Shown one piece after another: positions 31,637 through 63,014 of a DNA stretch of 64,000 bases. The DNA comes from an uncultured delta proteobacterium (lineage in GTDB: Bacteria > Desulfobacterota > Syntrophia > Syntrophales > UBA2192): assembly GCA_963802225.1 (NCBI GenBank), contig CAWDHZ010000012.1, forward strand, positions 69,972 to 133,971, read 5' to 3'. Under the pieces are notes generated by a model. The model saw only the letters and a list, made by a program, of their open reading frames with translations, did no database searches and was not told the DNA's origin. The position numbers and the translations under genes are program-made. Positions within the stretch are counted from its first letter, which is position 1. Each line of letters opens with the position of its first letter.

Positions 31637-31672
31637 CCGGTCTATCCAGTCTATTCAGTCTGTTCCGTCTTT
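31637..31672. repeat. 9-nt degenerate tandem array abutting the pfkB start codon
   Basis: CCGGTCTAT CCAGTCTAT TCAGTCTGT TCCGTCTTT. Confidence 0.8.
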
Positions 31673-31678
31673 GGGTCC

Positions 31679-31725
31679 AAATCCCCCTCTTTCCCCCTTT
31701 GATAAAGGGGGATGAAGGAGGATTT
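31679..31725. repeat. 47-nt palindromic element, copy 1
   Basis: AATCCCCCTCTTTCCCCCTTTGATAAAGGGGGATGAAGGAGGATTT. Core stem TCCCCCTTT/AAAGGGGGA. Near-identical to 58907-58955. Confidence 0.85.
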
Positions 31726-31730
31726 CTCTT

Positions 31731-31778
31731 TTCACTTCTTCACTCAGACACTCAGACACTTAGACACTTTTAACACTG
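31731..31778. repeat. 8-nt CAGACAC-type tandem array
   Basis: TTCACTTCTTCACTCAGACACTCAGACACTTAGACACTTTTAACACTG. Confidence 0.85.
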
Positions 31779-31794
31779 TCGCGAAGCGGCCCGA

Positions 31795-32721
31795 TCATTC
31801 GCAAATGCTGTCCGTCATGTCCCCCTTGAGCCAGCGGTCCACAAGGGCGCGGGTGAGTGCGATATCCCGGTTCGAGCGCTTTGCCGCCTCTTCCAGAATG
31901 CTCATCGTCGCCCGGACCTTTTCCTCCATGCCCAACAGGGCGTAGATCCGCACGCTCTGTTCCCAGTAATTCACGGCCGAGGCATCATCCCGAAGGCCTG
32001 CAGTACAGCGGCCCAGGGCGGTTAAGTCATCGGCGATCCCCCTGTAAAAGCCGGCTTTGCGGTCGCTTTCGAGGGCCTTTTCGAAATAGGGAACGGCCTC
32101 CTTGTACCGGGCCGTCCCGAGCAGCAGCTCCCCCATGGCGTGATTCGCGGCTGCCGCCCCGGCGGGATTCCTTCTGTCGATATTATCGAGAGCCTCTTTG
32201 AACATCCCCTCGGCCCCCTTGACATCGCCCTGCTTCGCAAGGAAAATGCCCTTCACCGTCATGGCCGGGACGAAGGGTTTGCGCCCGATGAGGATCTTCA
32301 GCGCCTCGTCGATGTTCTTCCCGGCAGCAGCGTAATCCCCCGTATCCACCTGGGCGGCCGCCAGGTTCGACAGCGTCTGTCGCACGTCCTCCTGATCCCC
32401 GAGACCCCTGTACATCCGCAGTGCATCCTCGAGGAAGGGGATCGCGGCTGCGGCCTCGCCCATGGCGCGGTACACGACACCGATGTTGTTTGCGCTCATG
32501 GCCATACCGCGGCTGTCCCCAATCGCCGTGTATAGCTCGTTGGACCTGTAGAAGTGATCCAGGGCACGGGCATAACAGCCCCGTTCATAGAACGGCATCC
32601 CCTTGTCGGTCTGCACGCTGCCGGCGCTGATGTGATCGGGCACGATCACCTCTTTTGTCCCGCCGCAGGATGCCAGGAGGAGCACGAAGATCAATGCGAT
32701 TCCAATATTCACGGTTCTCAT
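31795..32721 (-). CDS. TPR-repeat lipoprotein
   Basis: MRTVNIGIALIFVLLLASCGG lipobox. Repeated A..Y/F..AL.. 34-aa TPR-like units. Begins 8 nt after the MlaD-like stop. Confidence 0.75.
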   Translation of the reverse strand: MRTVNIGIALIFVLLLASCGGTKEVIVPDHISAGSVQTDKGMPFYERGCYARALDHFYRSNELYTAIGDSRGMAMSANNIGVVYRAMGEAAAAIPFLEDALRMYRGLGDQEDVRQTLSNLAAAQVDTGDYAAAGKNIDEALKILIGRKPFVPAMTVKGIFLAKQGDVKGAEGMFKEALDNIDRRNPAGAAAANHAMGELLLGTARYKEAVPYFEKALESDRKAGFYRGIADDLTALGRCTAGLRDDASAVNYWEQSVRIYALLGMEEKVRATMSILEEAAKRSNRDIALTRALVDRWLKGDMTDSICE

Positions 32722-32728
32722 AGCCGCC

Positions 32729-33676
32729 TCATTTCCTCAGACCGGCGTCCAGGTCTTTCCCCTCGGGCTTCGGGGGAAGGTTTCCCCTGACGAAGGGGTT
32801 CTTTTCCAGGGCCTTGACGACACGGTTGATTTCATCCACTCCATCCCTGATTTCCTGGAGGCCTCGCTTCGTTGTCCGAATCACGGCCGGGACCTCGCGG
32901 CTTCCTTTCTCGAGGTTGACCGTGATTTCCCGGATGTTCTCCATGCTCTCCCGCAGATTGGCCGTCACCTCTGGGGTGGCGCCCTCGACATTTTTCAAGA
33001 CATTATCGAGCCTCTCCATGGACGTGTTCACCCGGTTGATCAGCTCGTCGGACCGCAGGAGCTGACCCGCCGTCCCTTCACCTTCCTTCAGGCCGGTGGT
33101 TACCGTTTCCAGATTTTTCAGGTTTTTCTCGATGCTGTTCAGCGAGACGAAGAGCGGTCCCTTCGGGTCTCTCAATTCGTCAACGATGTCGGCGAGGTTC
33201 CGGATGGTCTCCGTCAGGCGCTTGGCCGTCTCCTCCACCTCGTACTCCGCCAGAATCTGCGCGAGGGTTTTCTTCTCTTCGGATTTGACCGTCTCCCCGG
33301 AGGGAATGAGGGGGCTGTCGGGTTTGCCCGGCCGCACGGCCACATACTCCGACCCGATGAGGGTGGGGCTCTCGACGGTGACCACCGTGTCCTGCCGGAA
33401 CCGGGTGCGATACTCCTCGAAGATCAACAGCCGCACGCGAACGGCATCCCCGACGAGCTGCACGGATTTCACGTGCCCGATCTCGGCCTTGAAGAGCTTC
33501 ACCGACGAGCCCGGCGCGAGGTTGTAGTTCTCCTTGAACTGCGCATAGTAGGTCACCGTCGGGCGGAACCAGTCCTTGCCGCGCCCGATAAGGACCACCG
33601 TGCCGATCATGAGGGCGACGACGAGGATGATGAAGACGCCGACGACCCGGTCCATCCTGCTGAATTTCAGTTCCAT
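32729..33676 (-). CDS. mlaD: MlaD/MCE-domain protein
   Basis: N-terminal TM helix, then an MCE domain (YYAQFKENYNLAPGSSVKLFKAEIGHVKSVQL), then a long coiled-coil tail. Confidence 0.8.
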   Translation of the reverse strand: MELKFSRMDRVVGVFIILVVALMIGTVVLIGRGKDWFRPTVTYYAQFKENYNLAPGSSVKLFKAEIGHVKSVQLVGDAVRVRLLIFEEYRTRFRQDTVVTVESPTLIGSEYVAVRPGKPDSPLIPSGETVKSEEKKTLAQILAEYEVEETAKRLTETIRNLADIVDELRDPKGPLFVSLNSIEKNLKNLETVTTGLKEGEGTAGQLLRSDELINRVNTSMERLDNVLKNVEGATPEVTANLRESMENIREITVNLEKGSREVPAVIRTTKRGLQEIRDGVDEINRVVKALEKNPFVRGNLPPKPEGKDLDAGLRK

Positions 33677-33700
33677 GACTCCCCCGGGACGGGACGGCCT

Positions 33701-34366
33701 TCAAACGACATTCACCACGCCGTCCCGAATGTAGATGTCTTTCTTCTTGAACAGGCGATCGTACTGCGTCAGCCCGGCATAGTAGACGCAGGGAATACCC
33801 GAATCGATCGCCTTCCGCGTCATCTCGATGTAGAGCTCGACGACCGGGCGGGCGAGAACGACAAAGGCCTGCTCGATGAGAAACACCTCTGCCCCCTTCG
33901 TCATCTCCCGGACGATGACGGCCGCACGGACATCCTCCAGCGCGACCTGGGCGGGACGAAGGTCGAGCTTTTCCTCGATCCCGAAAAGGCGGCAAAGCGA
34001 CAAGACATCGTCGCTCAACTGCAGGTCCAGCTTGTTTTCGTGGTAGTAGCGGCCGAGCAACAGATTCGTCCTCAGCGTCCGGTTCCCAATCAGGGCGGCA
34101 TCGGTCCCGAGATAGGCGATCCTTCTCCGGACGGGCAGGAGCCGGCGGGACTTGGTAAAATCCAGCGCTTCGTCCTTGAAAAAGTAAGTGCCCTCCTCCG
34201 GCGGCTCGAGGGTTGCCAGGGCCCTCAGGAAAAGGTGCGCATCGTCGATCCGGTCGGCATGAAGGCTGAAGGCATCCCCCTGCGAAAGGGAGAAGGAGAA
34301 CTTCTGCAATCCCTTTCCCCGGCCCGTGGGGGCGTGCGCGTACTCTCTCAGTTCGACAATCGCCAT
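33701..34366 (-). CDS. MlaF-position ABC ATPase-like protein with degenerate Walker A, signature and Walker B motifs
   Basis: ORF track 33701..34393. ATG 34366 gives MAIVELREY.... ABC-like scaffold (GDAFSL..., IAYLGTDAAL..NRTLRTNL, EVFLIEQAF), but no GxxGxGK(S/T), no LSGGQ and no hhhhDE. Confidence 0.55.
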   Translation of the reverse strand: MAIVELREYAHAPTGRGKGLQKFSFSLSQGDAFSLHADRIDDAHLFLRALATLEPPEEGTYFFKDEALDFTKSRRLLPVRRRIAYLGTDAALIGNRTLRTNLLLGRYYHENKLDLQLSDDVLSLCRLFGIEEKLDLRPAQVALEDVRAAVIVREMTKGAEVFLIEQAFVVLARPVVELYIEMTRKAIDSGIPCVYYAGLTQYDRLFKKKDIYIRDGVVNVV

Positions 34367-34373
34367 AGCCAAC

Positions 34374-35150
34374 CTACAGGATGAAGGCGGCAAAGAGAAT
34401 GAAATTCACCGCCAGGCAGTAAATGAGGCAAGCAACGGCCCCCCTCGAAGTGGCAACGGGAACCTCCGTGATCCCCCTTTTGATGGCCAGCCCGTAGTGC
34501 AGCGCGATCACGGTAATCCCCACGCCGAAAAATAGGGCCTTGAGGGCGACTACGGCGATGTCGAGGCCCGTGATGGCCTTCCCGATCTGGGAGAGAAAAT
34601 TCTGCAGGGGCAGGGTCGTGAGCGCCCAGGCGATGGCGTACCCTCCCAGCACGGAGGTAATGCAGAAAATCGTGATCAGGCAGAACATGGACACTGTGAT
34701 GCCGATCATGCGGGGCACGTACAGGATATCGAGAGGGTTGATCCCCTGGAGCTCCAGGGCTTCGATTTCCCTCAGCACGTTCATATATCCCGTCTCGATG
34801 GTTATCGCGGTCGCGGACCGGAGAGTGACGATGAGCGCCGTGATGAGCGGTCCGACCTCGCGAATGAGCAGGGCCACCGTGATATTTCCCAGGTCATGCT
34901 GGGCCGCAACACCCGAGAGCTGCAGGATCATCATGCTCCCGAGCAGAAGTGCAATGGGGATCACGATCCACAGGGCTTCAACGGCCGTGAAATAGATCTG
35001 CTCGATGACGATTCGGACCCGGAGCCTGCGACCCATCCTGGGGTTGACGACGATCTGGCGCAGAATCCGGTAGAGGAAGGCCGACTGGTCCGCGTAGCGG
35101 TTCAGCCGAACCTCCGTCTGCCTTCCCACATACCCCACGAAATCCCGCAC
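34374..35150 (-). CDS. mlaE: MlaE-family ABC permease
   Basis: 258 aa with 5-6 TM helices. IEQIYFTAVEALWIVIPIALLLGSMMILQ and REIEALELQGINP are MlaE/Ttg2B-like. Confidence 0.85.
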   Translation of the reverse strand: MRDFVGYVGRQTEVRLNRYADQSAFLYRILRQIVVNPRMGRRLRVRIVIEQIYFTAVEALWIVIPIALLLGSMMILQLSGVAAQHDLGNITVALLIREVGPLITALIVTLRSATAITIETGYMNVLREIEALELQGINPLDILYVPRMIGITVSMFCLITIFCITSVLGGYAIAWALTTLPLQNFLSQIGKAITGLDIAVVALKALFFGVGITVIALHYGLAIKRGITEVPVATSRGAVACLIYCLAVNFILFAAFIL

Positions 35151-35320
35151 CGAAACGGCCTCCCGGAAACTCCTGCCCTGCGCGTAACTGCGGTAAAACT
35201 TTAAACGAAACCCCCCGGTTCGTCAACCGGGAAGTCTTTGCTGTCCCGGGCAGAGGTTTCCATTCCGGGCGGGTCGAGTCCTGCCCCCAGGCCGGAAGCG
35301 GATCCGCGCGAAGGAGAGAA

Positions 35321-35355
35321 TCACAAAGGCCTCCCGCCCCAAAGGGCGGAAGGCC
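35321..35355 (-). terminator. Rho-independent terminator after leuD
   Basis: The minus strand reads GGCCTTCCGCCC-TTTG-GGGCGGGAGGCC (12-bp stem, one G.U), followed by TTTGTGATT. It lies 42 nt after the leuD stop. Confidence 0.6.
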
Positions 35356-35396
35356 TTTTCATGACGGTCGAGTGCAACTGCGCAGCAGCTTGAACG

Positions 35397-35900
35397 CTAT
35401 GGCTGCTTCTGAAGCTTTTCCTTGCGGATGTGCTCCACGAGCCCGCCTGCCTTGATGAGCCGCTCCATGAAGGGCGGGATCGGGCGGGCCTGGTAGGATT
35501 TCCCGCGGGTGAGGTTCTCGATCTTCCCGTTGATCAGATCGACGGAAAGCCGGTCGCCTTCCTGCAGATCCTCGGCGGCATCGGCCGACTCGAGGAGCGG
35601 CAGCCCGATGTTGAAGGCATTGCGGTAGAAGATCCGGGCAAAGCTCTTCGCGATGATGACGGAGACGCCGGAGGCCTTGATGGCGATAGGGGCGTGCTCC
35701 CGGGACGAGCCGCAGCCGAAGTTTCTTCCCCCCACGATGACATCCCCCGGCGAGACGGCTGAGGCGAATTCGGGTTTTCCGTCGGCAAAGGCGTGCTTTG
35801 CCAGCAAGGCCCCGTCGGAGACATTGCAGTAGCGGGCTGCAATGATGAGATCCGTGTCCACATCATCGCCGAACTTCCAGACTCTACCTTCGAATTTCAT
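35397..35900 (-). CDS. leuD: 3-isopropylmalate / citraconate hydratase small subunit (type II LeuD)
   Basis: 167 aa. MKFEGRVWKFGDDVDTDLIIAARY and GGRNFGCGSSREHAPIAIK are the archaeal-type LeuD pattern. Confidence 0.9.
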   Translation of the reverse strand: MKFEGRVWKFGDDVDTDLIIAARYCNVSDGALLAKHAFADGKPEFASAVSPGDVIVGGRNFGCGSSREHAPIAIKASGVSVIIAKSFARIFYRNAFNIGLPLLESADAAEDLQEGDRLSVDLINGKIENLTRGKSYQARPIPPFMERLIKAGGLVEHIRKEKLQKQP

Positions 35901-35922
35901 ATCGTCTCCTTACAGTCGACAA

Positions 35923-36020
35923 GTGCCTGAGTGTCTAAGTGTCTGAGTGATCAAGTGATGGAGTGAAGAATGTTAGAAGCTTTCTTTCTTCACTCAGACA
36001 CCATTTCACTCAGACACTGA
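35923..36020. repeat. Inverted pair of CAGACAC-type arrays filling the leuC-leuD spacer
   Basis: Left arm: GTGCCTGAGTGTCTAAGTGTCTGAGTGATCAAGTGATGGAGTGAAGAA. Right arm: TTCTTCACTCAGACACCATTTCACTCAGACACTGA. Confidence 0.85.
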
Positions 36021-36023
36021 TTT

Positions 36024-37283: not shown

Positions 37284-37456
37284 CGTTATGCAACTCCAGC
37301 AAAGTGTTCGATAAGAGGTTCTTAACCGAAAGGCTTGTCAAAAATGGCCAAATGCAAGGCAGCCGACATCCCGAGGAGCGAGGCGTACTTAGTGTGTACG
37401 TTGAGCGACGAGGGACGAGGCGAACGCCGCAGAGGGCCGTTTTTCACAAGCCTCCT

Positions 37457-39067: not shown

Positions 39068-39084
39068 CTTTCTCAATCCCCCTC

Positions 39085-39124
39085 GAAATAAAAAATCCGT
39101 TACCAGGGAGCCTGATAACGGATT
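39085..39124 (-). terminator. Attenuator terminator between the leader peptide and cimA
   Basis: The minus strand reads AATCCGTTA-t-CAGG-CTC-CCTG-g-TAACGGATT, followed by TTTTTTATTT. It ends 18 nt before the cimA ATG. Confidence 0.6.
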
Positions 39125-39160
39125 TGGTTGATTCCTTCCGGTTATGCCATCAAGCCATCA

Positions 39161-39238
39161 TCAGCCCCCTACGCCGCCCGGACGTATGCCGATTATGTCG
39201 ATAATAATAGCGATGATGGTGCCGATGATGCTCTTCAT
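39161..39238 (-). CDS. Isoleucine-rich leader peptide (25 aa)
   Basis: ATG AAG AGC ATC ATC GGC ACC ATC ATC GCT ATT ATT ATC GAC ATA ATC GGC ATA CGT CCG GGC GGC GTA GGG GGC TGA = MKSIIGTIIAIIIDIIGIRPGGVGG. 10 of 25 codons are Ile. It lies between a sigma70-like promoter and a terminator, upstream of cimA. Confidence 0.65.
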   Translation of the reverse strand: MKSIIGTIIAIIIDIIGIRPGGVGG

Positions 39239-39269
39239 TTCGAAAATTGAACCTCTTGAAAGTTGGCAG

Positions 39270-39298: not shown

Positions 39299-39305
39299 TG
39301 AAATT

Positions 39306-41842: not shown

Positions 41843-41938
41843 GAACTGGGGAATTGGGAATCCCGAATCCCTTTTCCTCTTCACTCAGACACTTAGACAC
41901 TCAGACACTCAGACACTCCGTCACTTCCTTTTTCACTG
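41843..41938. repeat. GGGAATN heptamers followed by a CAGACAC-type 8-nt array, downstream of the TolC gene
   Basis: GGAACTG GGGAATT GGGAATC CCGAATC C..., then CTCAGACA CTTAGACA CTCAGACA CTCAGACA (41884-41915). The array overlaps the TolC stop codon. Confidence 0.8.
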
Positions 41939-43297: not shown

Positions 43298-43325
43298 CAC
43301 CTCACTAAAACGTCTTTTCCCGAAT

Positions 43326-43367
43326 CCCGATGCCTGATGCCTGATTCCCGACTCCCGCCGCCTCCGG
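43326..43367. repeat. 7-nt degenerate tandem array (permease-TolC spacer)
   Basis: CCCGATG CCTGATG CCTGATT CCCGACT CCCGCCG CCTCCGG. Confidence 0.8.
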
Positions 43368-43371
43368 CGGC

Positions 43372-44493: not shown

Positions 44494-44494
44494 T

Positions 44495-45634
44495 CTATAG
44501 CCCCTCTTTCCTCATCTTGACCACGGCAGCAGCGGCGCCGACGAGAAACATGACGAGCAGCACCAGGAAGCTCGGCCAGAGGTAGCTCATCCCCACATTG
44601 CGGAGAAACAGCCCGTTCATGATGTCGATGTAGTACGTCGCCGGGACGATCCAGGTCACGAACTGAAGCATCCGGGGCATGTTCTCCACGGGAAACACGA
44701 AGTTCGAAAGCAGAAGCGCCGGCAGGTACGAAACGAGCAGCGCGATCTGGTTTGCCACGAGCTGGGACTTCGTGGCTATCGAGATGAAGAGCCCCAGCCC
44801 CAGCGCAACCGACAGGTAGATCGAAGAGGCCAGGATCATCAGCCAGAAGCTCCCCTTCATGACCACCCCGAAGAGCAGCTGCCCCATGAGCAGCGCCACG
44901 AGGACGTCCGTCATCGCGATGAGGAAATAGGGGATCGCCTTCCCGGTGAGAAACTCGACGGCGTTGATCGGGAGAGACCGGATCGTCTCCATGGTCCCGT
45001 TTTCGTATTCCCGGGCGATGACGAGCGAGGTCAGCATGGCCCCCACGATCATGATGATGACGGCGATGATGCCGGGGACGATGAAGTTGCGGCTCTCGAG
45101 CTCCTCGTTGAACCAGACCCGAACGCGCCCTTCTACGGCCGGGCGCAGGTTGTCGAGGCCTTGCCGGCCGAGGAAGTCGACGAGCAGTCGCGAGTTGTAT
45201 CGCTCGACGAAGGAAGTGATATAGCCCCGGGAGATGGTCCCGATGTTCGGGTCGCTGGCATCGATCAGGACCTGCAGCGGCGCTTCGCGGTTCGAGCGGA
45301 TGTTTTCGGTCCACCGCGGCGGGATGACCAGCGCAATCGTCGCCTTGCCGGCATCGAGCCAGGCCACGGCAGCTCGTTCGTCGGGAAGATAGGTAACCAG
45401 GTCAAAGTAGGCCGAGGCGTCGAGACGGCCGGCGAAATCCCGGGAGAGCTCCGTGCGGTCGTGGTCGACGATGACGACCTTCACGTTGTCCACGTCGAGC
45501 GAGAGCGCATAGCCGAAGAGCAGGATGAGCAGCAGCGGCAGCGCAAAGGCCATGTACAGGCTCCGGTAGTCCCGGACGATGTGGTAGAACTCCTTCCGGG
45601 CCACGGCCTGTATGTTTCGGGGATTGATCAACAT
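44495..45634 (-). CDS. ABC-2 type transporter permease (YbhS/YbhR-like)
   Basis: ORF track 44495..45676. ATG 45634 gives MLINPRNIQAVARKEFYHIVRDYRSLYMAF. The extra upstream codons lie in a repeat array. Confidence 0.85.
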   Translation of the reverse strand: MLINPRNIQAVARKEFYHIVRDYRSLYMAFALPLLLILLFGYALSLDVDNVKVVIVDHDRTELSRDFAGRLDASAYFDLVTYLPDERAAVAWLDAGKATIALVIPPRWTENIRSNREAPLQVLIDASDPNIGTISRGYITSFVERYNSRLLVDFLGRQGLDNLRPAVEGRVRVWFNEELESRNFIVPGIIAVIIMIVGAMLTSLVIAREYENGTMETIRSLPINAVEFLTGKAIPYFLIAMTDVLVALLMGQLLFGVVMKGSFWLMILASSIYLSVALGLGLFISIATKSQLVANQIALLVSYLPALLLSNFVFPVENMPRMLQFVTWIVPATYYIDIMNGLFLRNVGMSYLWPSFLVLLVMFLVGAAAAVVKMRKEGL

Positions 45635-45635
45635 T

Positions 45636-45668
45636 GACGTCTGTTCCGTCTGTCCCGTCGTTCCGCGG
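45636..45668. repeat. 9-nt degenerate tandem array abutting the permease start codon
   Basis: GACGTCTGT TCCGTCTGT CCCGTCGTT CCGCGG. It shares TCCGTCTGT with 31637-31672. Confidence 0.75.
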
Positions 45669-45682
45669 GGCGGCATCTCGAA

Positions 45683-45758
45683 GCCTGCAGTCTACAGCCT
45701 ACAGCCGACAGTAAAGACCTGCCATCTGTTGGCTGTTGGCTGTCAGCTGTCGGCTGGC
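45683..45758. repeat. Inverted pair of heptamer arrays (CAGCCNA / TNGGCTG)
   Basis: Left arm GCCTGCAGTCTACAGCCTACAGCCGACAG, 14-nt loop, right arm CTGTTGGCTGTTGGCTGTCAGCTGTCGGCTGGC. Confidence 0.85.
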
Positions 45759-45764
45759 CATTTG

Positions 45765-45800
45765 CCTCGTCCCGACACCCTGGTCCCTAGTCCCTTTCCG
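45765..45800. repeat. 7-nt degenerate array overlapping the ATPase-2 stop
   Basis: CCTCGTC CCGACAC CCTGGTC CCTAGTC CCTTTCC. Confidence 0.7.
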
Positions 45801-47303: not shown

Positions 47304-47345
47304 GCCTGAAGCCTGTAGCCTGCAGCCTTTAGCCTTGAGCCTTAT
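47304..47345. repeat. 7-nt degenerate tandem array (hlyD-ATPase spacer)
   Basis: GCCTGAA GCCTGTA GCCTGCA GCCTTTA GCCTTGA GCCTTAT. Confidence 0.9.
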
Positions 47346-48617: not shown

Positions 48618-48724
48618 GGGCTTCAGGCTTCAGGCTTCGGGCTTCGGGCTTCGGGCTTCAGGATTCAGGAATTCGGATGCCTGATCGCGGCCGCGAAGCG
48701 GCTGCCTGATACCTGAAGCCTGTG
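48618..48724. repeat. Largest heptamer array, with a central GC palindrome and an inverted distal arm
   Basis: GGCTTCA x2, GGCTTCG x3, GGCTTCA, GGATTCA, GGAATTC (48619-48674). Then GCGGCCGCGAAGCGGCTGC. Then CCTGATACCTGAAGCCTG, which is complementary to the array units. Confidence 0.9.
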
Positions 48725-48795: not shown

Positions 48796-48830
48796 CCTAT
48801 ACCCTATACCCGATGCCCTTTACCCTGGCC
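48796..48830. repeat. 7-nt CCCTATA-type array
   Basis: CCTATAC CCTATAC CCGATGC CCTTTAC CCTGGCC. Confidence 0.85.
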
Positions 48831-48948
48831 GCTGCCGCTTCGCGGCATGGCCGGGCGTGCGAACCCGCTGCAGGCGGGCAGCTCCTGCCCGCAGCGTCTC
48901 GTCCCGTGTTCACGCTTTCCGGATCGCAAGCCCGCCGAGGCCGCGATG

Positions 48949-53946: not shown

Positions 53947-54027
53947 CCCCGGGAGCGTGAAACCCCGGAGCTTACAAACGTTATTCCCTGTTCTTTATTC
54001 CCTGAGGGCTCATCCACCGCCTGCCCC

Positions 54028-54400: not shown

Positions 54401-54428
54401 CCGAACCCTATACCCTGTACCCGATACC

Positions 54429-54442
<14 letters not shown>
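54401..54442. repeat. 7-nt CCCTATA-type array overlapping the kinase stop codon
   Basis: CCGAACC CTATACC CTGTACC CGATACC CTATCCC CTGTTTC. Confidence 0.85.
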
Positions 54443-57302
<2,860 letters not shown>

Positions 57303-57603
57303 GCAGTGATCCTGCTCGCGTTGTTTCGGAAGGCGGCGTGACTGCCCGCACAGCACAGCAATACGGGCATCCCGCAGGCGGTGCACACCTTACCGCCAAG
57401 ATAGCGATGCATGAAGCATACCAGCAACAGGCAGGCAAACATCACGCCGCGAGCCGCAGGCCGCAAGGCTTCAAAAGCGTTGGATTTCAAATAGTTATCC
57501 GGTGATGGGTTGCACCCTTTATCGGCTGCCCTTTCTGTGATAAAGAAGCAGCGGATGAGCCGCCGGCAACCGGCGGAATCGGATCGGAAAGGGCAGGATC
57601 ATC

Positions 57604-58194: not shown

Positions 58195-58197
58195 TCC

Positions 58198-58890
58198 ATG
58201 TCCGAAGTGAACGAGAACATTCGTCGGATCCGGGAGCGGGTTGCGGCAGCAGCCGCGCGCGCAGGCCGTGACCCGGCCGGGGTGCGCCTCATGGCCGTCA
58301 CCAAGACCGTGAGCGATGAACGGATCCGGGAGGCCATCGGGGCCGGGATCGAGATCATCGGAGAGAACTACGTCCAGGAGGCAAAGCGGAAGATCGAGCT
58401 GATGGGCAAGAGCGTAGAGTGGCACCTCATCGGCCATCTGCAGACCAACAAGGCAAAGTACGCCGTGCGCCTCTTCGACATGATCCACTCCGTGAACCGG
58501 CTGAGCCTGGCCGAGGAGCTCAACCGGCGGGCCGCCGCCGCGGGAATCGTGAGCAGGATTCTCGTCGAAGTCAACCTGGGCGGGGAGGAATCGAAGAGCG
58601 GCGCTGCGCCCGATGAGGCACCGGATCTGATCCGGGTCATCGCCGCAGGGATGCCGAACCTTTCGATCCAGGGCCTCATGACCATGGCGCCCTGGTATGA
58701 CGATCCCGAGAAGGCGAGGCCCTGCTTTACGGGCCTGCGGGCGCTGCGCGACCGCATTTTCGCCGAGAACATCCCGAACGTCACCATGCGGGATCTCTCC
58801 ATGGGGATGACGGATGACTTCGAGGTGGCCGTCGAGGAAGGCGCCACCCTGGTGCGGATCGGGCGGGCGATCTTCGGGGAGCGGAAGTAA
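58198..58890 (+). CDS. yggS: YggS-family pyridoxal-phosphate homeostasis protein
   Basis: LMAVTKTVS (PLP Lys), GENYVQE, WHLIGHLQTNK and LSMGMTDDFEVAVEEGATLVRIG. 230 aa. Confidence 0.9.
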   Translation: MSEVNENIRRIRERVAAAAARAGRDPAGVRLMAVTKTVSDERIREAIGAGIEIIGENYVQEAKRKIELMGKSVEWHLIGHLQTNKAKYAVRLFDMIHSVNRLSLAEELNRRAAAAGIVSRILVEVNLGGEESKSGAAPDEAPDLIRVIAAGMPNLSIQGLMTMAPWYDDPEKARPCFTGLRALRDRIFAENIPNVTMRDLSMGMTDDFEVAVEEGATLVRIGRAIFGERK

Positions 58891-58906
58891 GCCGTGATCA
58901 ATAAAA

Positions 58907-58955
58907 AAATCCCCCTCTTTCCCCCTTTGAAAAAGGGGGATGGAAGGGGGATTTT
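58907..58955. repeat. 47-nt palindromic element, copy 2; looks like a bidirectional terminator between convergent yggS and the HD-nuclease gene
   Basis: AAAAAAA-TCCCCCTCTTTCCCCCTTTGAAAAAGGGGGATGGAAGGGGGA-TTTTCTT. An A-run lies upstream and a T-run downstream of the hairpin. Confidence 0.85.
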
Positions 58956-58959
58956 CTTA

Positions 58960-59032
58960 CCTTGTGCCTTGGTGCCCGTGTATTTCCTATACCTAGACCC
59001 TCTACCCTCTACCCCGTTTCTACGCCCCTGCC
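58960..59032. repeat. 7-nt CCTNNNC-type degenerate array
   Basis: CCTTGTG CCTTGGTG CCCGTG..., then CCTATAC CTAGACC CTCTACC CTCTACC CCGTTTC TACGCCC CTGCC. It overlaps the stop of the HD-nuclease gene. Confidence 0.8.
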
Positions 59033-59976
59033 TTTCCCTTATAGAGAAACCTTTCGAAGAACCGGTGGAAGAGGGTCCACTCCGATTCCTCGTTGCCGGA
59101 ATTCCCGATAAAGGCCTGGAAGGCCGTCACTTTGGCGTCCAGATCGTCGACGAAATGGACGATGAGGGCCTCCATGGTCTTGGGACGCTTGGGAGAGCCG
59201 AAATCGAGCTCGCCGTGATGGGCAAGGACCACGTGCTTGAGCTCCAGAGCCAAGCCCTCCGGGAACCCGTCGATGGCCGCAATCCTCCGGTCGAGCATTT
59301 CCACTCCGAGGTAGATGTGCCCCAGGAGCCGCCCCGGTGTCGAGTAATCGATGGCCCGGTCGTAGGAAAATTCCTCGATCTTGCCGATGTCGTGCAGGAT
59401 CCCGCCGGCAATCAGCATGTCGCGGCTCACCGCCGGGTAGTGACTCGCCAGGAAGTCAAGGATCCGCACCATGGACAGGGTGTGCTCCAGGAGCCCCCCA
59501 AGGTAGGCGTGGTGGAATCCTTTTGCGGCAGGCGCCCTTTTGAGCCGCGCGGCCAGATCCCCGTCGCCCAGAAAGTTCTCCAGCAGTTTTTTCAGCCAGG
59601 GGTTCTCCACCGAGGCCACATAGCCCGACAGCGCGGTGAACATCTCTTCAACGTCGCCCTTCGTGGTGGGGAAATAATCCCAGGGGTCGATGTCGGTCTC
59701 CTCTATTCTGCGGATGTCCAGGACAGCGAGTTGCGTGCTGTCGCGGTAGCTGACGGCGCGGCCCTGCACGAAGACGATGTCGCTTTTTTTAAAGAGCGGG
59801 TCGAGGGCGGGCACGTTGTCCCAGACTCGCCCTTCGATGTCCCCCGTCCTGTCACGGAGCCGGATGCTCAGATAAGGCGCACCCTTCTGGGAATAGGCGA
59901 GATTCTTTTCCATGACGAGAAACGACGCCTTGATCTTCTCGCCTGCCTTGATGTCTTTCACGTATAAGGATTTCAT
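59020..59976 (-). CDS. OB-fold + HD-domain 3'-5' exoribonuclease (YhaM-like)
   Basis: N-terminal OB region (FLVMEKNLAYSQKGAPYLSIRLRDRTGDIEGRVW). HD motifs HHAYLGGLLEHT and ILHDIGK. Confidence 0.7.
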   Translation of the reverse strand: MKSLYVKDIKAGEKIKASFLVMEKNLAYSQKGAPYLSIRLRDRTGDIEGRVWDNVPALDPLFKKSDIVFVQGRAVSYRDSTQLAVLDIRRIEETDIDPWDYFPTTKGDVEEMFTALSGYVASVENPWLKKLLENFLGDGDLAARLKRAPAAKGFHHAYLGGLLEHTLSMVRILDFLASHYPAVSRDMLIAGGILHDIGKIEEFSYDRAIDYSTPGRLLGHIYLGVEMLDRRIAAIDGFPEGLALELKHVVLAHHGELDFGSPKRPKTMEALIVHFVDDLDAKVTAFQAFIGNSGNEESEWTLFHRFFERFLYKGKAGA

Positions 59977-60002
59977 CCATTTCCTTCCTGTTGTTTATTG
60001 AC

Positions 60003-60090
60003 TGAAGCCTGAGAGCTCTTTCTTTTTTCCTCCCACCTGGTACCTGTCATCTGCTGCCTGTAGCCTGTGGCCTTGTTTGCCTACGCCTTG
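60003..60090. repeat. 7-nt CCTGNNN-type degenerate array
   Basis: TGAAGCCTGAGAGC..., then CCTCCCA CCTGGTA CCTGTCA TCTGCTG CCTGTAG CCTGTGG CCTTGTT TGCCTAC GCCTTGA. It overlaps the fdhD stop. Confidence 0.8.
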
Positions 60091-60872
60091 ATGGCTTTGC
60101 TTCCCGCATAGACCGTGAAAGACCCGCTCCGCACATACCCCACGACCACGATCCCCAGCGACTCGGCCAGCATGACGGCCCGCGAGGTGGCCGCCGAGTG
60201 GGAGACGATGACGGGAACCCCCATCCGCCAGGCCTTGGAGACGATTTCCGAGGAGACGCGCCCCGTCGTCAAAAGAATCTTGTCGGAAAGGTCGACGCCT
60301 TCGGTGAGCGCCCACCCGCAGAGCATGTCGATCGTGTTGTGCCGCCCGATGTCCTCCCGTGCCGCGAGGATGCCCTGCAGTCCGGCCAGGGCCGAGCAGT
60401 GGGTGCCCCGTGTGCGCTCGTGAATCACCGTGGCCGCAAGGAGCGCATCCATCAGACTCAGAACCGTTTGAGCATCGAGCTCCGGGCGGGCCTGAAGGAC
60501 GGCACTTTTATTCCCTTCCGCCTGGAACGAGCGGCTGCCGCGGGAGCCGCTCGAGGCAATCGTCTTTCCCGTCGCCGGGGAGGGCCTAGAGCCCCTGCCG
60601 CCCCGGGTCCGTATGTCGACCCGGTCGGACGAGAAGGTCATTTGCATGATATCCTCAGCCGTCTCGATCAGGCCTTCCTGTTTCGCAAACCCTGTCGCAA
60701 GCTCCCGCAGGTGAAGACCCGCGCAGGCAATGGTCACGACGAGACCGCCATCGACGAAGACCTCCAGGAGCATCTCGCGGACCACGTCCACCGGGGCCCC
60801 GGAGAATCGCTTTCCGTCGAAGCGGCGCAGGCTCAGCTGCTCGATCCCTTCCGTTCCGGCCGGTTTTTTCAT
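60081..60872 (-). CDS. fdhD: FdhD-family formate-dehydrogenase accessory protein (Cys loop not evident)
   Basis: 263 aa. REDIGRHNTIDML and TGRVSSEIVSKAWRMGVPVIVSHSAATS are FdhD-like. ATGA overlap with the selB stop. Confidence 0.8.
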   Translation of the reverse strand: MKKPAGTEGIEQLSLRRFDGKRFSGAPVDVVREMLLEVFVDGGLVVTIACAGLHLRELATGFAKQEGLIETAEDIMQMTFSSDRVDIRTRGGRGSRPSPATGKTIASSGSRGSRSFQAEGNKSAVLQARPELDAQTVLSLMDALLAATVIHERTRGTHCSALAGLQGILAAREDIGRHNTIDMLCGWALTEGVDLSDKILLTTGRVSSEIVSKAWRMGVPVIVSHSAATSRAVMLAESLGIVVVGYVRSGSFTVYAGSKAIKA

Positions 60873-62788
60873 CGCTGCTGCCTCTCCCTCAGCGTCCGGT
60901 GATCGCCCACGCGGATGGTGAGCTTCGTGGCGTCGAAATATTCCATGAGGGGGATGATGTACTTGCGGGAAAGACCCGTGAGGTCCTTGAAGGTGGCCGG
61001 TGTGGCCTTCCCGTCCCTCGTCAGAGCCGCTGAGTAGTCCTCTTTCAGCTTTCCCATCGGCTCGCTGTGGAAAAAGAGATCCTCGGTGACCTTCACGAGC
61101 ACCCCTTCGTTGAGAAGCACCCCGAGCACGCTCAGGATCTCGGCCTTCTTCCCCTTGAGCGCCTCCATGACCTCCTTGACGGAAGGCGGCGTCAGCTGCG
61201 CTTCGCGGTAGATCGTATCGATCCTTCCTCCCAGGTCTCCCAGATTTCCCTTGAGATCGACGCGGTGTGCCGCAAGCCGCACGTGCTCCCGGTCGGCGAG
61301 GATCCTCTTCTCGTTTTCCAGCTCCTTCAGGGCCATGTTGAAAAGCTTGCTCTCGAGCTCCTGGCCTGCCGTCGTCCGCAGCTCCTCCTTGGGCACGCCC
61401 TCCTTGAGGGGGAACCGCTGGTGGTAGAGGCCGATCTCCTGGAGAAGCTCCTCCTTTAATCCCTGGTAGGCGGGAAACGAAACGATCCGGGTCTCTTCCC
61501 TGTCGATGCGGATGATGGCCTTCTTTTCGGCCATGTCCTTCAGGATCCGGTTCAGATCGCCCAGCGGGATCCCCGTCCTCACGGCAAGCCGGCTCGACGT
61601 GAGCCCTTGAACCCCCGTGCGCCCCAGGATCACGGCCACCCGCTCGACGTCAGTCCCCGTGCGGAGCGACTCCAGCTCCACGGCAAACCGCTCCTTCGTC
61701 TTTTTCTGCTTCACGGCATCGGGGTCGAGGATCTCGCCGCCGCCCACCGTGCGGATGGGGGAGTAGCTGCGGATCACGAACCGGTCCCTGCCCATGGTCA
61801 CGACGGGCTCTTCCAGCAGCAGCTGGGCGTAGACCTTCTGCCCCGGCTGGAGCTCCTCGCGGTCGAGAAGGACGACGCGGGCCATGATCTCGTTCGTCCC
61901 CGTGTGGAAGCGAGTGAGCGCGCGGTTCTTCAGTACCCGGCCCGCCCCCGCAAGATACTCGAGATGGACGTCGAGGCGCTGGGAGGGCTCGAAGATGTTC
62001 GGATGGGCCACCACGTCGCCCCGCTCCAGCGCGGTGCGCTCGACGCCCTGCAGGTTGATGGCGGTGCGCTGCCCGGCTTCGGCGTCTTCCTGCGACTCGT
62101 TGTGGACCTGGATGCCGCGCACCTTGGCGTGGATGCGCTGGGGCAGGACCTCGACGGTGTCGCCCACGCTCACGCGACCGGAGACGAGGGTCCCCGTGAC
62201 GACGCTGCCGAATCCCTTCATGGTGAAAACCCGGTCGACGGGAATCCGGAAGAGGCCGCTGTCGCGGCGCTCGCCGATCCGGGAGGCCATCTCCTCGATG
62301 GCGGCTGTAAGCTCTGCAATCCCTTCCCCCGTGACGACGGACACCGGGATGATAGGCGCTCCATCGAGAAAGGTCGTCTTCATGAACCCGCGCACGTCAT
62401 CTCGCACGAGCGAAAGCCAGTCGGCGTCGACCAGGTCGATCTTGGTGAGTGCGATGATGCCGCTTTGGATCCCGAGCAGGGTGCAGATGTCGAGGTGCTC
62501 GCTCGTCTGGGGCATGACCCCCTCGTCGGCGGCGATCACGAGAAGAACCATGTCGATGCCGGTGGCGCCGGCCACCATGTGCTTGACGAATTTCTCGTGG
62601 CCCGGCACATCGACGACGCCGAGGGCATCGCCGTTTTCGAGGGGTAGGGAAGCAAAGCCCAATTCGATCGTGATCCCCCGCTCCTTCTCCTCCTTCAACC
62701 GGTCCGTGTCCACGCCGGTGAGGGCCTTGACGAGCGAAGTCTTCCCGTGATCGACATGACCTGCCGTGCCCAGAATAATGTGCTTCAT
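60869..62788 (-). CDS. selB: Selenocysteine-specific translation elongation factor
   Basis: [25 protein letters not shown]...[18 protein letters not shown] GTPase. 639 aa with C-terminal winged-helix repeats. Confidence 0.9.
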
Positions 62789-62899
62789 GAAATCCGATCC
62801 TGCTTGCCGGTCGCGTCATTCGCAGCGGAAAAACGGACAATCCGTCATGAGATAACAGAATTCCTGCCGTTACTCAATCTCAAAGATTGCACGGATCGA

Positions 62900-63014
62900 G
62901 GTCTAGGGTATGAGGTGATAGGCGACAGCCGTAAGTGAAGCAGCCTCAGTAAGAGTCCTGACTACCTGTTACACTGTTACCGGCTGTAGGCTGTCGGCTG
63001 TTGGCTATTAGCCC
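62900..63014. repeat. Composite: inverted CCCTATA-type units, then ACAGCC / GGCTGTN arrays of opposite polarity
   Basis: GGTCTAGGGTATGAGGTGATAGG; then GCGACAGCCGTAAGTGAAGCAGCCTCAG; then GGCTGTA GGCTGTC GGCTGTT GGCTATT AGCCC. Confidence 0.8.

What the first reader, a model, noticed from the sequence alone, without database searches (positions are those of the whole stretch)
31637..63014. Nearly every intergenic spacer over 31 kb is built from degenerate 7-9 nt tandem arrays (at least 17 arrays in about 12 spacers)
SEEN: Spacers between 31.6 and 63.0 kb consist of short-period direct repeats whose units drift by 1-2 nt per copy. Examples:
- GGCTTCA GGCTTCA GGCTTCG GGCTTCG GGCTTCG GGCTTCA GGATTCA GGAATTC (48619-48674)
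- GCCTGAA GCCTGTA GCCTGCA GCCTTTA GCCTTGA GCCTTAT (47304-47345)
- CCTATAC CCTATAC CCGATGC CCTTTAC CCTGGCC (48796-48830)
- CTCAGACA CTTAGACA CTCAGACA CTCAGACA (41884-41915)

A few unit classes recur at distant loci and on both strands: GCCTGNA/GGCTGTN, CCCTATA, CAGACAC and GTCTGTTCC. For example, CCTATACCTAGACCC at 58986-59000 recurs as a near reverse complement, GGTCTAGGGTATGAGG, at 62900.

The arrays sit inside operons (hlyD|ABC, ABC|permease, permease|tolC, leuC|leuD, kinase|hpt) as well as between convergent and divergent genes. Four of them run over the last codons of a CDS (stops at 41933, 45787, 54429 and 60081). A weaker candidate lies in the cimA-leuC spacer (about 37370-37428).

I saw none in the tightly packed polysaccharide locus or in the AT-rich block.

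These arrays are not CRISPR-like, since there are no unique spacers and the period is far too short. They are not coding and do not match any REP/BIME family I recognise.

INFERENCE: This is a lineage-specific family of intergenic simple-sequence elements. Possible roles are RNA structure, processing or stability signals, binding platforms for a periodic nucleic-acid-binding protein, or neutral slippage products. I cannot distinguish between these from sequence alone.
Basis: seen in the sequence. Interest (0 to 1): 0.8.

Follow-up and report, generated by a model that had tools for sequence, protein, structure and literature searches.

The report
Heptamer-dominated intergenic repeat arrays in Syntrophaceae
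About half of the gaps between genes in this Syntrophaceae genome carry short tandem arrays of 7-9-base units that grow and shrink by replication slippage; a few array types sit at fixed places and orientations next to stop or start codons, which makes this an undescribed lineage example of a known but functionally unexplained bacterial repeat phenomenon.

Summary
The arrays are real and far beyond chance. TRF finds 11 arrays of period 7-9 in 3.25 kb of spacer, against 0.29 in shuffles, at 16 times the coding density. "Nearly every spacer" is overstated: about 12 of 20 spacers carry arrays here, and 47% of 256 spacers do in relatives.

They are long simple-sequence repeats. Period 7 dominates, and near-identical strains differ by clean 7-, 16- and 21-nt indels, which is the slippage signature. 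Orthologous spacers keep an array but change its unit sequence.

They are not featureless. I see four kinds:
- (GACGGAAYA)n lies in sense just 5' of start codons (30/42 versus 1/39) and replaces a canonical Shine-Dalgarno sequence.
- (GAGTGTCT)n-GAGTGAAGA is a high-copy module found in only 7 related MAGs, and it trails stop codons (62:17).
- (GGGNNNN)n abuts stop codons on the coding strand (33/45 versus 1/32). Xanthomonas and Nostoc G-quadruplex repeats follow the same rule.
- Inverted array pairs form hairpins of about 30 bp.

The closest precedents are heptameric SSRs (Mrazek 2007; Rehm 2015), TAACTGA repeats in Beggiatoaceae, and paired 7-9-nt arrays in Geobacter metallireducens. I rate this a new variant of a known kind. 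Function is inferred, not shown.

The parts
31640..31675 (-). Class D array, (GGAAYAGAC)x3 read in mRNA sense. It ends 3 nt before the ATG of the PfkB kinase gene (31636).
31679..31725 (.). CCCCC/GGGGG hairpin (AAATCCCCCTCTTTCCCCCTTT / AAAGGGGGATGAAGGAGGATTT). In relatives the same module directly precedes many class D arrays.
   Evidence: (I6)
31731..31771 (-). Class C module, (GAGTGTCT)x3 plus a GAGTGAAGA tail. It lies 26 nt after the stop of the TPR lipoprotein gene (31795).
35921..36018 (-). leuC|leuD spacer. A class C arm (35986-36018) and its inverse complement (35921-35970) form a hairpin (z = -4.8).
   Evidence: (I2, I3)
37403..37423 (-). Weak two-unit heptamer trace (CCTCGTC CCTCGTC) in the cimA-leuC spacer. 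Not significant on its own.
41848..41871 (.). GGGAATT / GGGAATC / CCGAATC palindromic heptamers in the tolC trailer.
41878..41928 (-). Class C module, (GAGTGTCT)x4.6 plus a GAGTGAAGAGG tail, 5 nt after the tolC stop (41933). The relative L197 has two units fewer (a clean 16-nt indel).
43319..43371 (-). perm2|tolC spacer. A conserved stop-proximal mini-hairpin (43357-43371) is followed by the heptamers GGGAGTC GGGAATC AGGCATC AGGCATC GGGATTC. L197 lacks exactly one unit (7 nt).
45639..45666 (-). Class D array, (GGAACGAC GGGACAGAC GGAACAGAC), ending 4 nt before the conserved ATG of ABC-2 permease 1 (45634). It is present next to this ATG in about 15 of 20 orthologous spacers, with 1-6 units.
45683..45757 (-). 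Inverted pair of heptamer arrays, (ACAGCCN)x4 at 45726-45757 and (NGGCTGT)x4 at 45683-45711. Together they form a hairpin (z = -2.9).
45765..45794 (-). G-tract heptamer array GGGACTAGGGACCAGGGTGTCGGGACGAGG. It contains the abc2 stop codon TAG (45787-89), has four G-tracts (G-quadruplex consensus), and recurs at other genes and genomes.
47304..47344 (-). (AGGCTNN)x5 filling the hlyD|abc1 spacer from the stop codon to the SD. It is unstructured (z = 0.07). Orthologous arrays in relatives have other units.
48619..48724 (-). (TGAAGCC)x7 at 48619-48674 with a partly complementary (CAGGCNT) array at 48675-48724 around a GCGAAGC mini-hairpin. Forms a hairpin (z = -3.7) upstream of hlyD.
   Evidence: (I1, I11)
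48796..48830 (-). G-tract heptamers (AGGGTAA AGGGCAT CGGGTAT AGGGTAT AGG) in the trailer of the STAS gene.
53981..54005 (-). Weak 13-nt direct repeat (GGGAATAAAGAAC AGGGAATAA) between hpt and the GGDEF regulator gene. Not of the 7-9 class.
54401..54440 (-). G-tract heptamers AGGGGAT AGGGTAT CGGGTAC AGGGTAT AGGGTTC. They overlap the last three codons and the TAG stop (54429-31) of the hybrid kinase gene, upstream of hpt.
58905..58955 (.). Second copy of the CCCCC/GGGGG hairpin between convergent genes. It is flanked by A7 and T runs and is flagged as terminator-like on the minus strand.
   Evidence: (I5)
58986..59015 (-). G-tract heptamers (GGGGTAG AGGGTAG AGGGTCT AGGTATAGG), 5 nt after the stop of the HD-domain gene (59020) and upstream of the terminator hairpin.
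60036..60077 (-). (AGGCCAC AGGCTAC AGGCAGC AGATGAC AGGTACC AGG), starting 3 nt after the fdhD stop (60081). Unstructured (z = 0.5).
62900..63013 (.). GGTCTAGGGTATGAGGTGATAGG (62900-22) and (GGCTGTN)x4 (62982-63013) in the spacer upstream of selB.

Best explanation
The arrays are long simple-sequence repeats with units of 7, 8 or 9 nt, in that order of abundance.

How they arise (shown). Slipped-strand mispairing creates, expands and contracts them in non-coding DNA of a Syntrophaceae lineage. Units that are not multiples of three are purged from coding DNA, so the arrays fill spacers up to the neighbouring stop and start codons.

What is layered on top (pattern shown, role inferred). A few unit classes have become position- and orientation-specific parts of transcripts:
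(i) G-tract heptamers (GGGNNNN)n and the clade-specific (GAGUGUCU)n-GAGUGAAGA module sit at or just after stop codons on the coding strand. I read them as 3'-trailer elements, with a possible G-quadruplex or exonuclease/pausing block.
(ii) (GACGGAAYA)n forms an unstructured, purine-rich leader that ends about 7 nt before the start codon. It takes the place of a canonical Shine-Dalgarno sequence. I read it as a weak-SD or standby ribosome-loading or regulator-binding platform.
(iii) Inverted array pairs make stem-loops of 25-35 bp between cistrons or at gene ends. I read them as mRNA stabilisers or terminators of the REP kind. Their arms are kept complementary while the unit sequence is replaced.
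For: Generation by slippage (shown):
- L206 and L212 are 100% identical over 900 nt of flank, yet carry GGGTCCA x1 and x4.
- Window versus L197 (93-97% identity) shows clean 7-nt and 16-nt indels inside arrays.
- Perfect arrays of 4-5 units occur in relatives.
- Intergenic periods are 7:115, 8:49, 9:26, with few others. In CDS the periods are 9, 12 and 6.

Turnover with position kept:
- Orthologous spacers of the hlyD-tolC operon carry arrays at the same place but with different units.

Class-specific position and orientation:
- Class D: 30/42 arrays have a long ORF start within 40 nt downstream in sense (19 within 10 nt), against 1/39 in antisense. This replicated at 26:3 in an independent set.
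- Genes behind class D have weak anti-SD pairing: median -3.5 versus -5.9 kcal/mol, 0% versus 49% at or below -6, p = 0.005.
- Class C: 62 of 79 lie downstream of a same-strand gene, at a median of 29 nt after the stop. Of these, 19 lie between convergent genes.
- (GGGNNNN)n: 33/45 lie within 30 nt after a same-strand stop, against 1/32 in antisense. This is not a gene-calling artefact.
- G4 motifs are 5-fold enriched in spacers.

Hairpins:
- z-scores run from -2.9 to -4.8.
- Five different units form a hairpin in the same spacer in different lineages, and both arms grew by 16 nt between L203 and L211.

Independent assemblies, including long-read MAGs, show the arrays, so they are not assembly artefacts.
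Against: - No transcript or protein data exist, so every functional role is inferred from position.
- Hairpins fold equally well on either strand. There is no G-U signature favouring the sense RNA, so a DNA-level role or origin is not excluded.
- The overall G>C sense bias of heptamers (52:24) was not significant in the replicate set (40:30).
- The preference for exactly four G-tracts is only mild.
- Genes behind class D arrays share no function, so there is no regulon logic.
- Gene calls were made with a crude GC3 rule, so distances are approximate.
- Orientation relative to transcription could not be separated from orientation relative to replication, except where arrays abut codons.
Confidence: 0.6

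Rival explanations
1. The arrays are purely neutral slippage products. They have no function at all. The position and orientation rules only reflect where such arrays are harmless. For example, C-rich unstructured RNA after a stop codon would load Rho, and arrays may be seeded from purine-rich SD regions.
For: - Rapid turnover of unit and copy number between relatives.
- Unpaired arrays are unstructured.
- No functional coherence among neighbouring genes.
- The general heptamer strand bias is weak.
- The AT-rich, probably acquired block has none, as expected if arrays accumulate slowly in situ.
Against: - The same 8- and 9-nt consensus sequences are kept at dozens of unrelated loci and in several genomes, while neighbouring arrays drift.
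- The last class D unit keeps a distance of about 7 nt to the ATG.
- The asymmetry of G-tract arrays at stop codons is 33:1.
Confidence: 0.25
2. The arrays are binding platforms on double-stranded DNA for a nucleoid-associated or global regulator protein. This was proposed (IHF/HU) for the paired 7-9-nt arrays of Geobacter metallireducens.
For: - The same architecture (3-5 tandem units, pairs on opposite strands at variable distance, also inside operons) is described in PMC2700814.
- Hairpin arms are Watson-Crick symmetric, with no RNA strand preference.
- G. metallireducens class 2 (TCTCCGTSY) is close to the reverse complement of class D.
Against: - Unit sequences are too diverse for one protein.
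- The strict orientation of classes C, D and E relative to the coding strand, and their contact with stop or start codons, is not expected for a symmetric DNA bender.
- The IHF/HU idea was itself only a conjecture.
Confidence: 0.07
3. The arrays are parts or footprints of small mobile elements (REP/BIME- or MITE-like). A cassette made of the C array, the CCCCC/GGGGG hairpin and the D array spreads between genes.
For: - The cassette recurs with the same module order at many loci, in high copy number, and is restricted to one clade.
- Hairpin modules are present or absent in orthologous spacers (L001/L217 versus others).
- True MITE-like inserts target class D arrays (L206, L212, L124).
Against: - No terminal inverted repeats or target duplications bound the arrays.
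- Differences between relatives are whole-unit indels, not insertions or excisions.
- Modules occur singly and in many combinations.
- No transposase or RAYT gene is linked within the window.
Confidence: 0.08
4. The arrays are contingency loci. Copy-number changes switch neighbouring genes on and off, as in phase variation.
For: Copy number does vary between near-identical strains, and some arrays lie in leaders.
Against: - Arrays are short (3-5 units) and degenerate.
- They flank housekeeping genes (leuCD, trpCF, ABC transporters).
- The last class D unit keeps its distance to the ATG whatever the copy number.
- Rehm et al. reached the same negative conclusion for Xanthomonas and Nostoc.
Confidence: 0.03

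Closest known systems
Heptamer-dominated long simple-sequence repeats (LSSR) of prokaryotes, especially the G-quadruplex-forming GGGNATC / GGGGAYT repeats of Xanthomonas and Nostoc (Rehm et al. 2015, PMC4692102; Mrazek et al. 2007 as cited there and in PMC4679880)
   Same: - Tandem 7-nt units that are over-represented in non-coding DNA.
- Located mostly between co-directional genes.
[quoted passage not shown]
- Inverted copies exist.
- Extensive length and sequence variation between close relatives at the same spacer.
- Neighbouring genes are unrelated, and the function is unknown.
- GGGAATC/GGGATTC units even occur in the window (43319-56, 41848-71).
   Different: - Here no single unit dominates: dozens of heptamers are used (AGGCTNN, ACAGCCN, AGGGTAN, AGGGACN, GGTGACA and others).
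- Arrays are shorter, and the preference for four units is only mild.
- Additional 8- and 9-nt classes have their own positional rules.
- The host is an anaerobic syntroph of the Desulfobacterota.
TAACTGA direct repeats of marine Beggiatoaceae, some Cyanobacteria and Bacteroidetes (MacGregor 2015, PMC4679880)
   Same: Class D arrays behave like them. They are sense-oriented tandem repeats that end a few nucleotides upstream of start codons. They sit in spacers that lack a canonical ribosome-binding site. They precede genes of unrelated function, including essential ones.
   Different: - The unit is 9 nt (GACGGAAYA), not 7 nt (TAACTGA), and has no sequence similarity.
- The host phylum is different.
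- A conserved CCCCC/GGGGG hairpin often precedes the array.
Paired 'putative global regulator binding sites', classes 1-3, and GGACCGG x4 elements of Geobacter metallireducens; direct repeats of 6-42 nt in G. bemidjiensis (Aklujkar et al. 2009, 2010; PMC2700814, PMC2996986)
   Same: - Three to five tandem units of 7-9 nt, mostly as pairs on opposite strands at variable distance.
- Found in intergenic regions, including inside operons (proBA).
- Species-specific, and targets of IS insertion.
- Same phylum.
- Class 2 (TCTCCGTSY) is close to the reverse complement of class D. Class 3 (MTYCTGA) resembles the (GAATCCT)n units seen here.
   Different: - The Geobacter elements were defined as a few BLAST-alignable families of 16-49 copies.
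- Here the arrays are far more heterogeneous and denser, affecting about half of all spacers.
- The IHF/HU interpretation is untested, and the orientation rules found here do not support it.
REP/BIME elements of Enterobacteria
   Same: - High-copy intergenic modules combined as mosaics in a preferred order.
- Stem-loops between cistrons and at gene ends.
- A plausible role in mRNA 3'-end protection or differential expression within operons.
   Different: - The stems here are built from tandem short units and change sequence between species.
- There is no conserved REP consensus.
- No RAYT link is known.
- Many arrays are unpaired and unstructured.
Cyanobacterial STRR (short tandemly repeated repetitive) heptamers
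   Same: Tandem heptanucleotides in non-coding DNA of particular lineages, with function unknown after decades.
   Different: STRR comprise a few fixed unit sequences per genome. No positional grammar comparable to classes C and D has been reported, as far as I know (my own knowledge, not tested here).

Membership tests
Long simple-sequence repeats (LSSR, units 5-11 nt) | Head-to-tail copies of a short unit, longer than expected by chance in that sequence. | tested here: met
   11 arrays found against 0.29 expected in shuffles. Autocorrelation peaks at lags 7 and 14.
Long simple-sequence repeats (LSSR, units 5-11 nt) | Heptamers are the commonest unit, and arrays are enriched in non-coding DNA. 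| tested here: met
   Intergenic periods are 7:109-115, 8:33-49, 9:26-62, with few others. CDS is dominated by 9, 12 and 6.
Long simple-sequence repeats (LSSR, units 5-11 nt) | Copy number changes by whole units between close relatives (slippage). | tested here: met
   7-nt and 16-nt indels between window and L197. GGGTCCA x1 versus x4 with 100% identical flanks.
G-quadruplex-forming heptameric repeats (Rehm 2015) | One G-tract of at least three G per 7-nt unit, with at least four consecutive units. | tested here: met
   A subset only, e.g. window 45765-94, 48796-830, 54401-40. There are 44 intergenic G4 motifs in co-directional spacers. Most other arrays (AGGCTNN, ACAGCCN, and classes C and D) do not qualify.
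G-quadruplex-forming heptameric repeats (Rehm 2015) | [quoted passage not shown] | tested here: met
   33/45 within 30 nt after a same-strand stop, against 1/32 in antisense. Control for gene-calling artefact.
G-quadruplex-forming heptameric repeats (Rehm 2015) | Clear preference for four units. | tested here: inconclusive
   Chains of 3, 4, 5 and 6 G-tracts number 125, 80, 28 and 6. That is a shoulder at four, not a mode.
G-quadruplex-forming heptameric repeats (Rehm 2015) | G4 folding of the oligonucleotides in vitro (CD, K+ dependence). | not testable with these tools
   Needs spectroscopy.
TAACTGA-type start-codon-proximal repeats (MacGregor 2015) | The unit sequence is TAACTGA. | tested here: not met
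   Class D units are GACGGAAYA. It works like this family but is not a member.
TAACTGA-type start-codon-proximal repeats (MacGregor 2015) | Forward orientation within a few nt of the start codon, with the canonical RBS missing. | tested here: met
   30/42 versus 1/39. Weak anti-SD pairing.
G. metallireducens paired tandem-repeat sites (classes 1-3) | Three to five tandem 7-9-nt units occurring as pairs on opposite strands at variable distance. | tested here: met
   Pairs at 45683-757, 35921-36018 and 48619-724. Other pairs in relatives.
G. metallireducens paired tandem-repeat sites (classes 1-3) | Consensus units GTTGCTYN, TCTCCGTS(Y) or MTYCTGA. | tested here: inconclusive
   There is only partial resemblance: the reverse complement of class 2 to class D, and class 3 to (GAATCCT)n in L048/L001. 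The Geobacter sequences themselves were not aligned.
REP/BIME | A conserved imperfect palindrome of 20-40 nt in high copy number, associated with RAYT transposases. | tested here: inconclusive
   The CCCCC/GGGGG hairpin and the class C module are high-copy. The array hairpins have no conserved sequence, and a RAYT link could not be examined.
CRISPR | Repeats of 24-48 nt separated by unique spacers of similar length. | tested here: not met
   Units of 7-9 nt are contiguous, with no spacers.
MITE | Terminal inverted repeats and target-site duplication bounding a unit of fixed length. | tested here: not met
   Not seen for the arrays. True MITE-like inserts exist in relatives but are separate entities.
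Known RNA families (Rfam 15) | A match to a covariance model. | tested here: not met
   No hit at gathering scores over the whole window, and none at E <= 0.1 over 31-64 kb.

The most novel reading that the evidence does not exclude
The three position-specific classes form a lineage-wide 'punctuation' of transcripts that is read by dedicated proteins binding periodic single-stranded nucleic acid. The classes are G-tract heptamers and (GAGUGUCU)n after stop codons, and (GACGGAAYA)n in place of the Shine-Dalgarno sequence before start codons. The readers could be, for example, cold-shock-domain, S1 or CsrA-like factors, each covering one unit or every second unit. On this reading, translation initiation and mRNA decay of hundreds of unrelated genes are set by the unit type and number of a fast-evolving repeat code.
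Probability: 0.15. Interest if true: 0.8.

Novelty: new variant of a known kind. Interest (0 to 1): 0.5.

Why it matters
Heptameric intergenic repeats have been noted in cyanobacteria, Xanthomonas, Beggiatoaceae and Geobacter for up to 35 years, and no function has been demonstrated for them.

This Syntrophaceae clade adds three useful things:
- A very dense case: about half of all spacers carry an array.
- Several classes that differ in unit length and obey different, strict rules: after stop codons, before start codons, or as hairpin pairs.
- Many closely related MAGs and metagenome contigs in which turnover can be followed unit by unit.

This makes three questions testable. Is the positional rule a selective filter or a function? 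Can a repeat array replace a Shine-Dalgarno sequence? How do the two arms of a repeat-built hairpin stay complementary?

There is also a practical point. The arrays mislead ORF callers, which extend CDSs through them, and they should be masked or annotated in these genomes.

Tried and rejected
- Rfam at gathering scores and at E <= 0.1, plus ARAGORN: nothing found.
- Sigma-70 promoter scan: no promoter-like site in or at the class D arrays. The idea that they are promoters of leaderless mRNAs found no support.
- Sense versus antisense folding of ten array hairpins, looking for a G-U signature of RNA-level selection: no consistent difference.
- Functional coherence of genes behind class D arrays: none. 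They include a PfkB kinase, an ABC-2 permease, an Opp ATPase, TrpF, TrpC, a GNAT, a hydrolase, DUF4416 and AcrB.
- A general 'SD-like stepping stones' reading of all heptamers: only some units (AGGTGAC, AAGGCGA) resemble the SD, so I dropped it.
- Transposon footprints (7-9-bp target duplications) as the source of the period: rejected. Perfect arrays of 4-8 in-register units and whole-unit indels fit slippage better.
- Assembly artefact: rejected. Arrays occur at orthologous sites in independent short-read and long-read assemblies.
- CsrA (ANGGA motifs at 9-nt spacing in class D): this remains an untested idea drawn from memory of the CsrA literature.

Full report
**Observation**

These are HlyD, two ABC ATPases, ABC-2 permeases, an OEP/TolC protein, LeuC/LeuD, a CimA-like protein, Hpt and STAS. 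Nearly all genes beyond 31 kb lie on the minus strand.

- The 20 spacers of at least 20 nt beyond 31 kb (3252 bp) hold 11 non-redundant TRF arrays of period 7-9. Dinucleotide-preserving shuffles give a mean of 0.29 and a maximum of 3.
- Array density is 3.4 per kb in spacers and 0.21 per kb in the neighbouring coding sequence.
- Spacer autocorrelation peaks at lags 7, 14 and 8. Coding DNA and the spacers before 31 kb, including the AT-rich block, show no peak.
- By eye there are about 20 arrays in about 12 of the 20 spacers. "At least 17 arrays in about 12 spacers" is therefore right, and "nearly every spacer" is too strong.

**Organism and distribution**

The HlyD protein finds Syntrophaceae/Syntrophales MAGs at 78-94% identity. 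The closest relatives (L001, L002, L005, L026, L048) are as rich in arrays as the window. L003 (78%) and more distant Syntrophales (L016, L034, L037, L073) have almost none. Some unrelated Desulfobacterota MAGs (L023, L053, L059, L060, L075) are again rich.

I then took 77 further loci from seven genomes of the clade. Of the 256 spacers of at least 40 nt that were not used to find those loci, 47% carry an array of period 7-9. Intergenic periods there are 7 (115), 8 (49) and 9 (26), with very few others. In coding DNA the common periods are 9, 12 and 6 (first set).

**How the arrays arise**

Orthologous spacers of the hlyD-abc-abc-perm-perm-tolC operon carry an array at the same place in each species, but with different units and copy numbers. 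At hlyD|abc1, for example:
- GGCTNNA in the window and L001;
- GGGTCGA plus GGGTAAA in L002;
- GGGTAYA in L005;
- GGCGAAA in L026;
- none in L003.

A 34-nt stretch of perm1 that is invariant across species retrieved 23 metagenome contigs. This gave about 20 versions of the abc2|perm1 spacer.
- L206 and L212 are 100% identical over 900 nt of flank but have one versus four GGGTCCA units.
- The window and L197 (93-97% identical) differ by a clean 7-nt indel in the perm2|tolC array. They also differ by a clean 16-nt indel, two units, in the array at 41878-41928.

This is the signature of slipped-strand mispairing. The arrays also occur at orthologous sites in independent short- and long-read assemblies, which excludes assembly artefacts.

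**Structure**

Several arrays are halves of inverted pairs. Pairs at 45683-45757, 35921-36018 and 48619-48724 fold into long hairpins with z-scores of -2.9, -4.8 and -3.7. Unpaired arrays (47304-44, 43319-56, 60036-77) are no more structured than shuffles.

In the abc2|perm1 spacer, five different units build a hairpin in different lineages: ACAGCCN, GGTGACA, GGAATGAT, AACAAGC and GGGTNNA. Between L203 and L211 both arms grew by 16 nt and kept perfect pairing. This is not universal, since L002 has 7.7 versus 4.3 units in its two arms.

Ten such hairpins fold equally well as sense or antisense RNA. I therefore have no evidence that the pairing is selected at the RNA level rather than kept at the DNA level.

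**Classes with positional rules**

*Class D, (GACNGAAYA)n.* A pattern scan of 185,579 genomes and inspection of the hits show many copies in Syntrophales, Desulfarculaceae and other delta-type MAGs.
- Of 42 evaluable non-coding arrays, 30 have a long ORF start within 40 nt downstream in sense, and 19 within 10 nt. In antisense the count is 1 of 39.
- In the independent set the orientation to the downstream gene is 26:3.
- The last GAC starts 6-8 nt before the ATG in most cases.
- These genes pair weakly with the anti-SD: median -3.5 versus -5.9 kcal/mol, none versus 49% at or below -6, p = 0.005.
- Their functions are unrelated.
- A conserved hairpin, AAATCCCCC...GGGGGATTT, often precedes the array. 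It occurs in the window at 31679-31725 and 58905-58955, and the second copy scores as a terminator.

*Class C, (GAGTGTCT)n followed by GAGTGAAGA.*
- 62 of 79 evaluable copies lie downstream of a same-strand gene, at a median of 29 nt after its stop. Nineteen of these lie between convergent genes.

*Class E, (GGGNNNN)n.*
- 33 of 45 copies lie within 30 nt after a same-strand stop codon, and 26 lie within 12 nt, often containing the stop. For the C-rich orientation the count is 1 of 32.
- This asymmetry is not caused by ORFs reading through C-rich arrays.
- G-quadruplex motifs are five-fold enriched in spacers.
- The preference for four tracts is only a shoulder in the distribution.

*Heptamers in general.* The overall strand bias is modest and did not replicate: 52:24 in the first set and 40:30 in the second.

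*Module order.* The modules recur in a preferred order: stop, (AGGGACN)n, C array, hairpin, D array, ATG. The spacer at 31637-31794 is a complete example.

**Comparison with the literature**

- Rehm et al. (PMC4692102) describe GGGNATC and GGGGAYT heptamer repeats of Xanthomonas and Nostoc. They report the same positional rule and the same variability between relatives, and they did not establish a function. They cite the idea that heptamers fit the DNA polymerase footprint and so favour slippage.
- MacGregor (PMC4679880) describes TAACTGA repeats just upstream of start codons that lack a canonical RBS. This is the analogue of class D.
- Aklujkar et al. (PMC2700814, PMC2996986) describe paired tandem arrays of 7-9-nt units in Geobacter intergenic regions, including inside operons. 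Their guess was IHF/HU binding.
- No paper in the searchable library mentions such repeats in Syntrophaceae or Desulfobacterota outside Geobacter.

**Interpretation**

Generation and turnover by slippage is shown.

The same 8- and 9-nt consensus sequences persist at dozens of unrelated loci, in one orientation, and in contact with stop or start codons. This argues that classes C, D and E are more than neutral debris. The roles I assign them are inferences from position only:
- 3' trailers, possibly with G-quadruplex formation;
- an SD-substituting leader;
- intercistronic stem-loops.

Two alternatives cannot be excluded. One is a purely selective filter, for example avoidance of C-rich naked RNA after stop codons. 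The other is DNA-level pairing maintained by template switching.

**Verdict**

The finding is real and statistically robust, and it appears undescribed for this lineage. It belongs to a known kind of bacterial repeat whose function remains open. I rate it a new variant of a known kind, with interest 0.5.

Noticed in passing
window 31778-31792, 48690-48705, 48836-48850: A GCGAAGC / GCTTCGC mini-hairpin motif (CCGCGAAGCGG) recurs in spacers next to arrays. The same motif ends the abc2 gene in L001 and L217.
   Followed up: no
window 22000-28400: This AT-rich block (GC 0.43-0.50, against about 0.60 elsewhere) has sizeable spacers but no period-7 signal. It is probably recently acquired DNA, which fits arrays accumulating in situ over time.
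   Followed up: partly
window 37331-37349 and 37435-37453: A long-range inverted repeat (19 nt, 89% complementary, 85 nt apart) spans the cimA-leuC spacer. It may be a regulatory leader of leuCD and is unrelated to the arrays.
   Followed up: no
window 45577-45610 (minus strand), start of the ABC-2 permease gene: The 34-nt coding stretch CAGGCCGTGGCCCGGAAGGAGTTCTACCACATCG is invariant, synonymous sites included. This holds in seven species that are otherwise 93% or less identical, and in 23 metagenome contigs.
   Followed up: partly
L206 and L212 (abc2|perm1 spacer); also L124, L169, L196: A MITE-like insert of about 150 nt, containing the hairpin CTCTCCCTTGAGGGGAGAGGGT, splits or directly follows class D arrays, so the arrays may be insertion targets. 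A second element has the terminal inverted repeats GTCATTGCGAG...CTCGCAATGAC (L169, L158, L196).
   Followed up: partly
window 44495-45676 ORF: The longest ORF of the permease gene starts 14 codons upstream of the conserved MLINPRN start and reads through the class D array (MPPRGTTGQTEQTS). In relatives the abc2 ORF can run on through G-tract arrays. Arrays will therefore cause mis-annotated CDS ends.
   Followed up: partly
window 39093-39125 (minus strand): A strong canonical intrinsic terminator (15-bp stem followed by TTTTATTT) lies after the papain-like protease gene. Ordinary terminators therefore coexist with the array hairpins.
   Followed up: no
L084, L097, L128, L151, L103, L141 (loci from the pattern scan): (GACGGAAYA)-like tandem arrays also turn up in non-coding DNA of MAGs labelled Verrucomicrobiota, Capsulimonadaceae, Acidobacteriota and Prevotella. 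Some may be mis-binned contigs. Hits in Streptomyces and Flavobacteria are mostly coding (G-T-D repeats).
   Followed up: no
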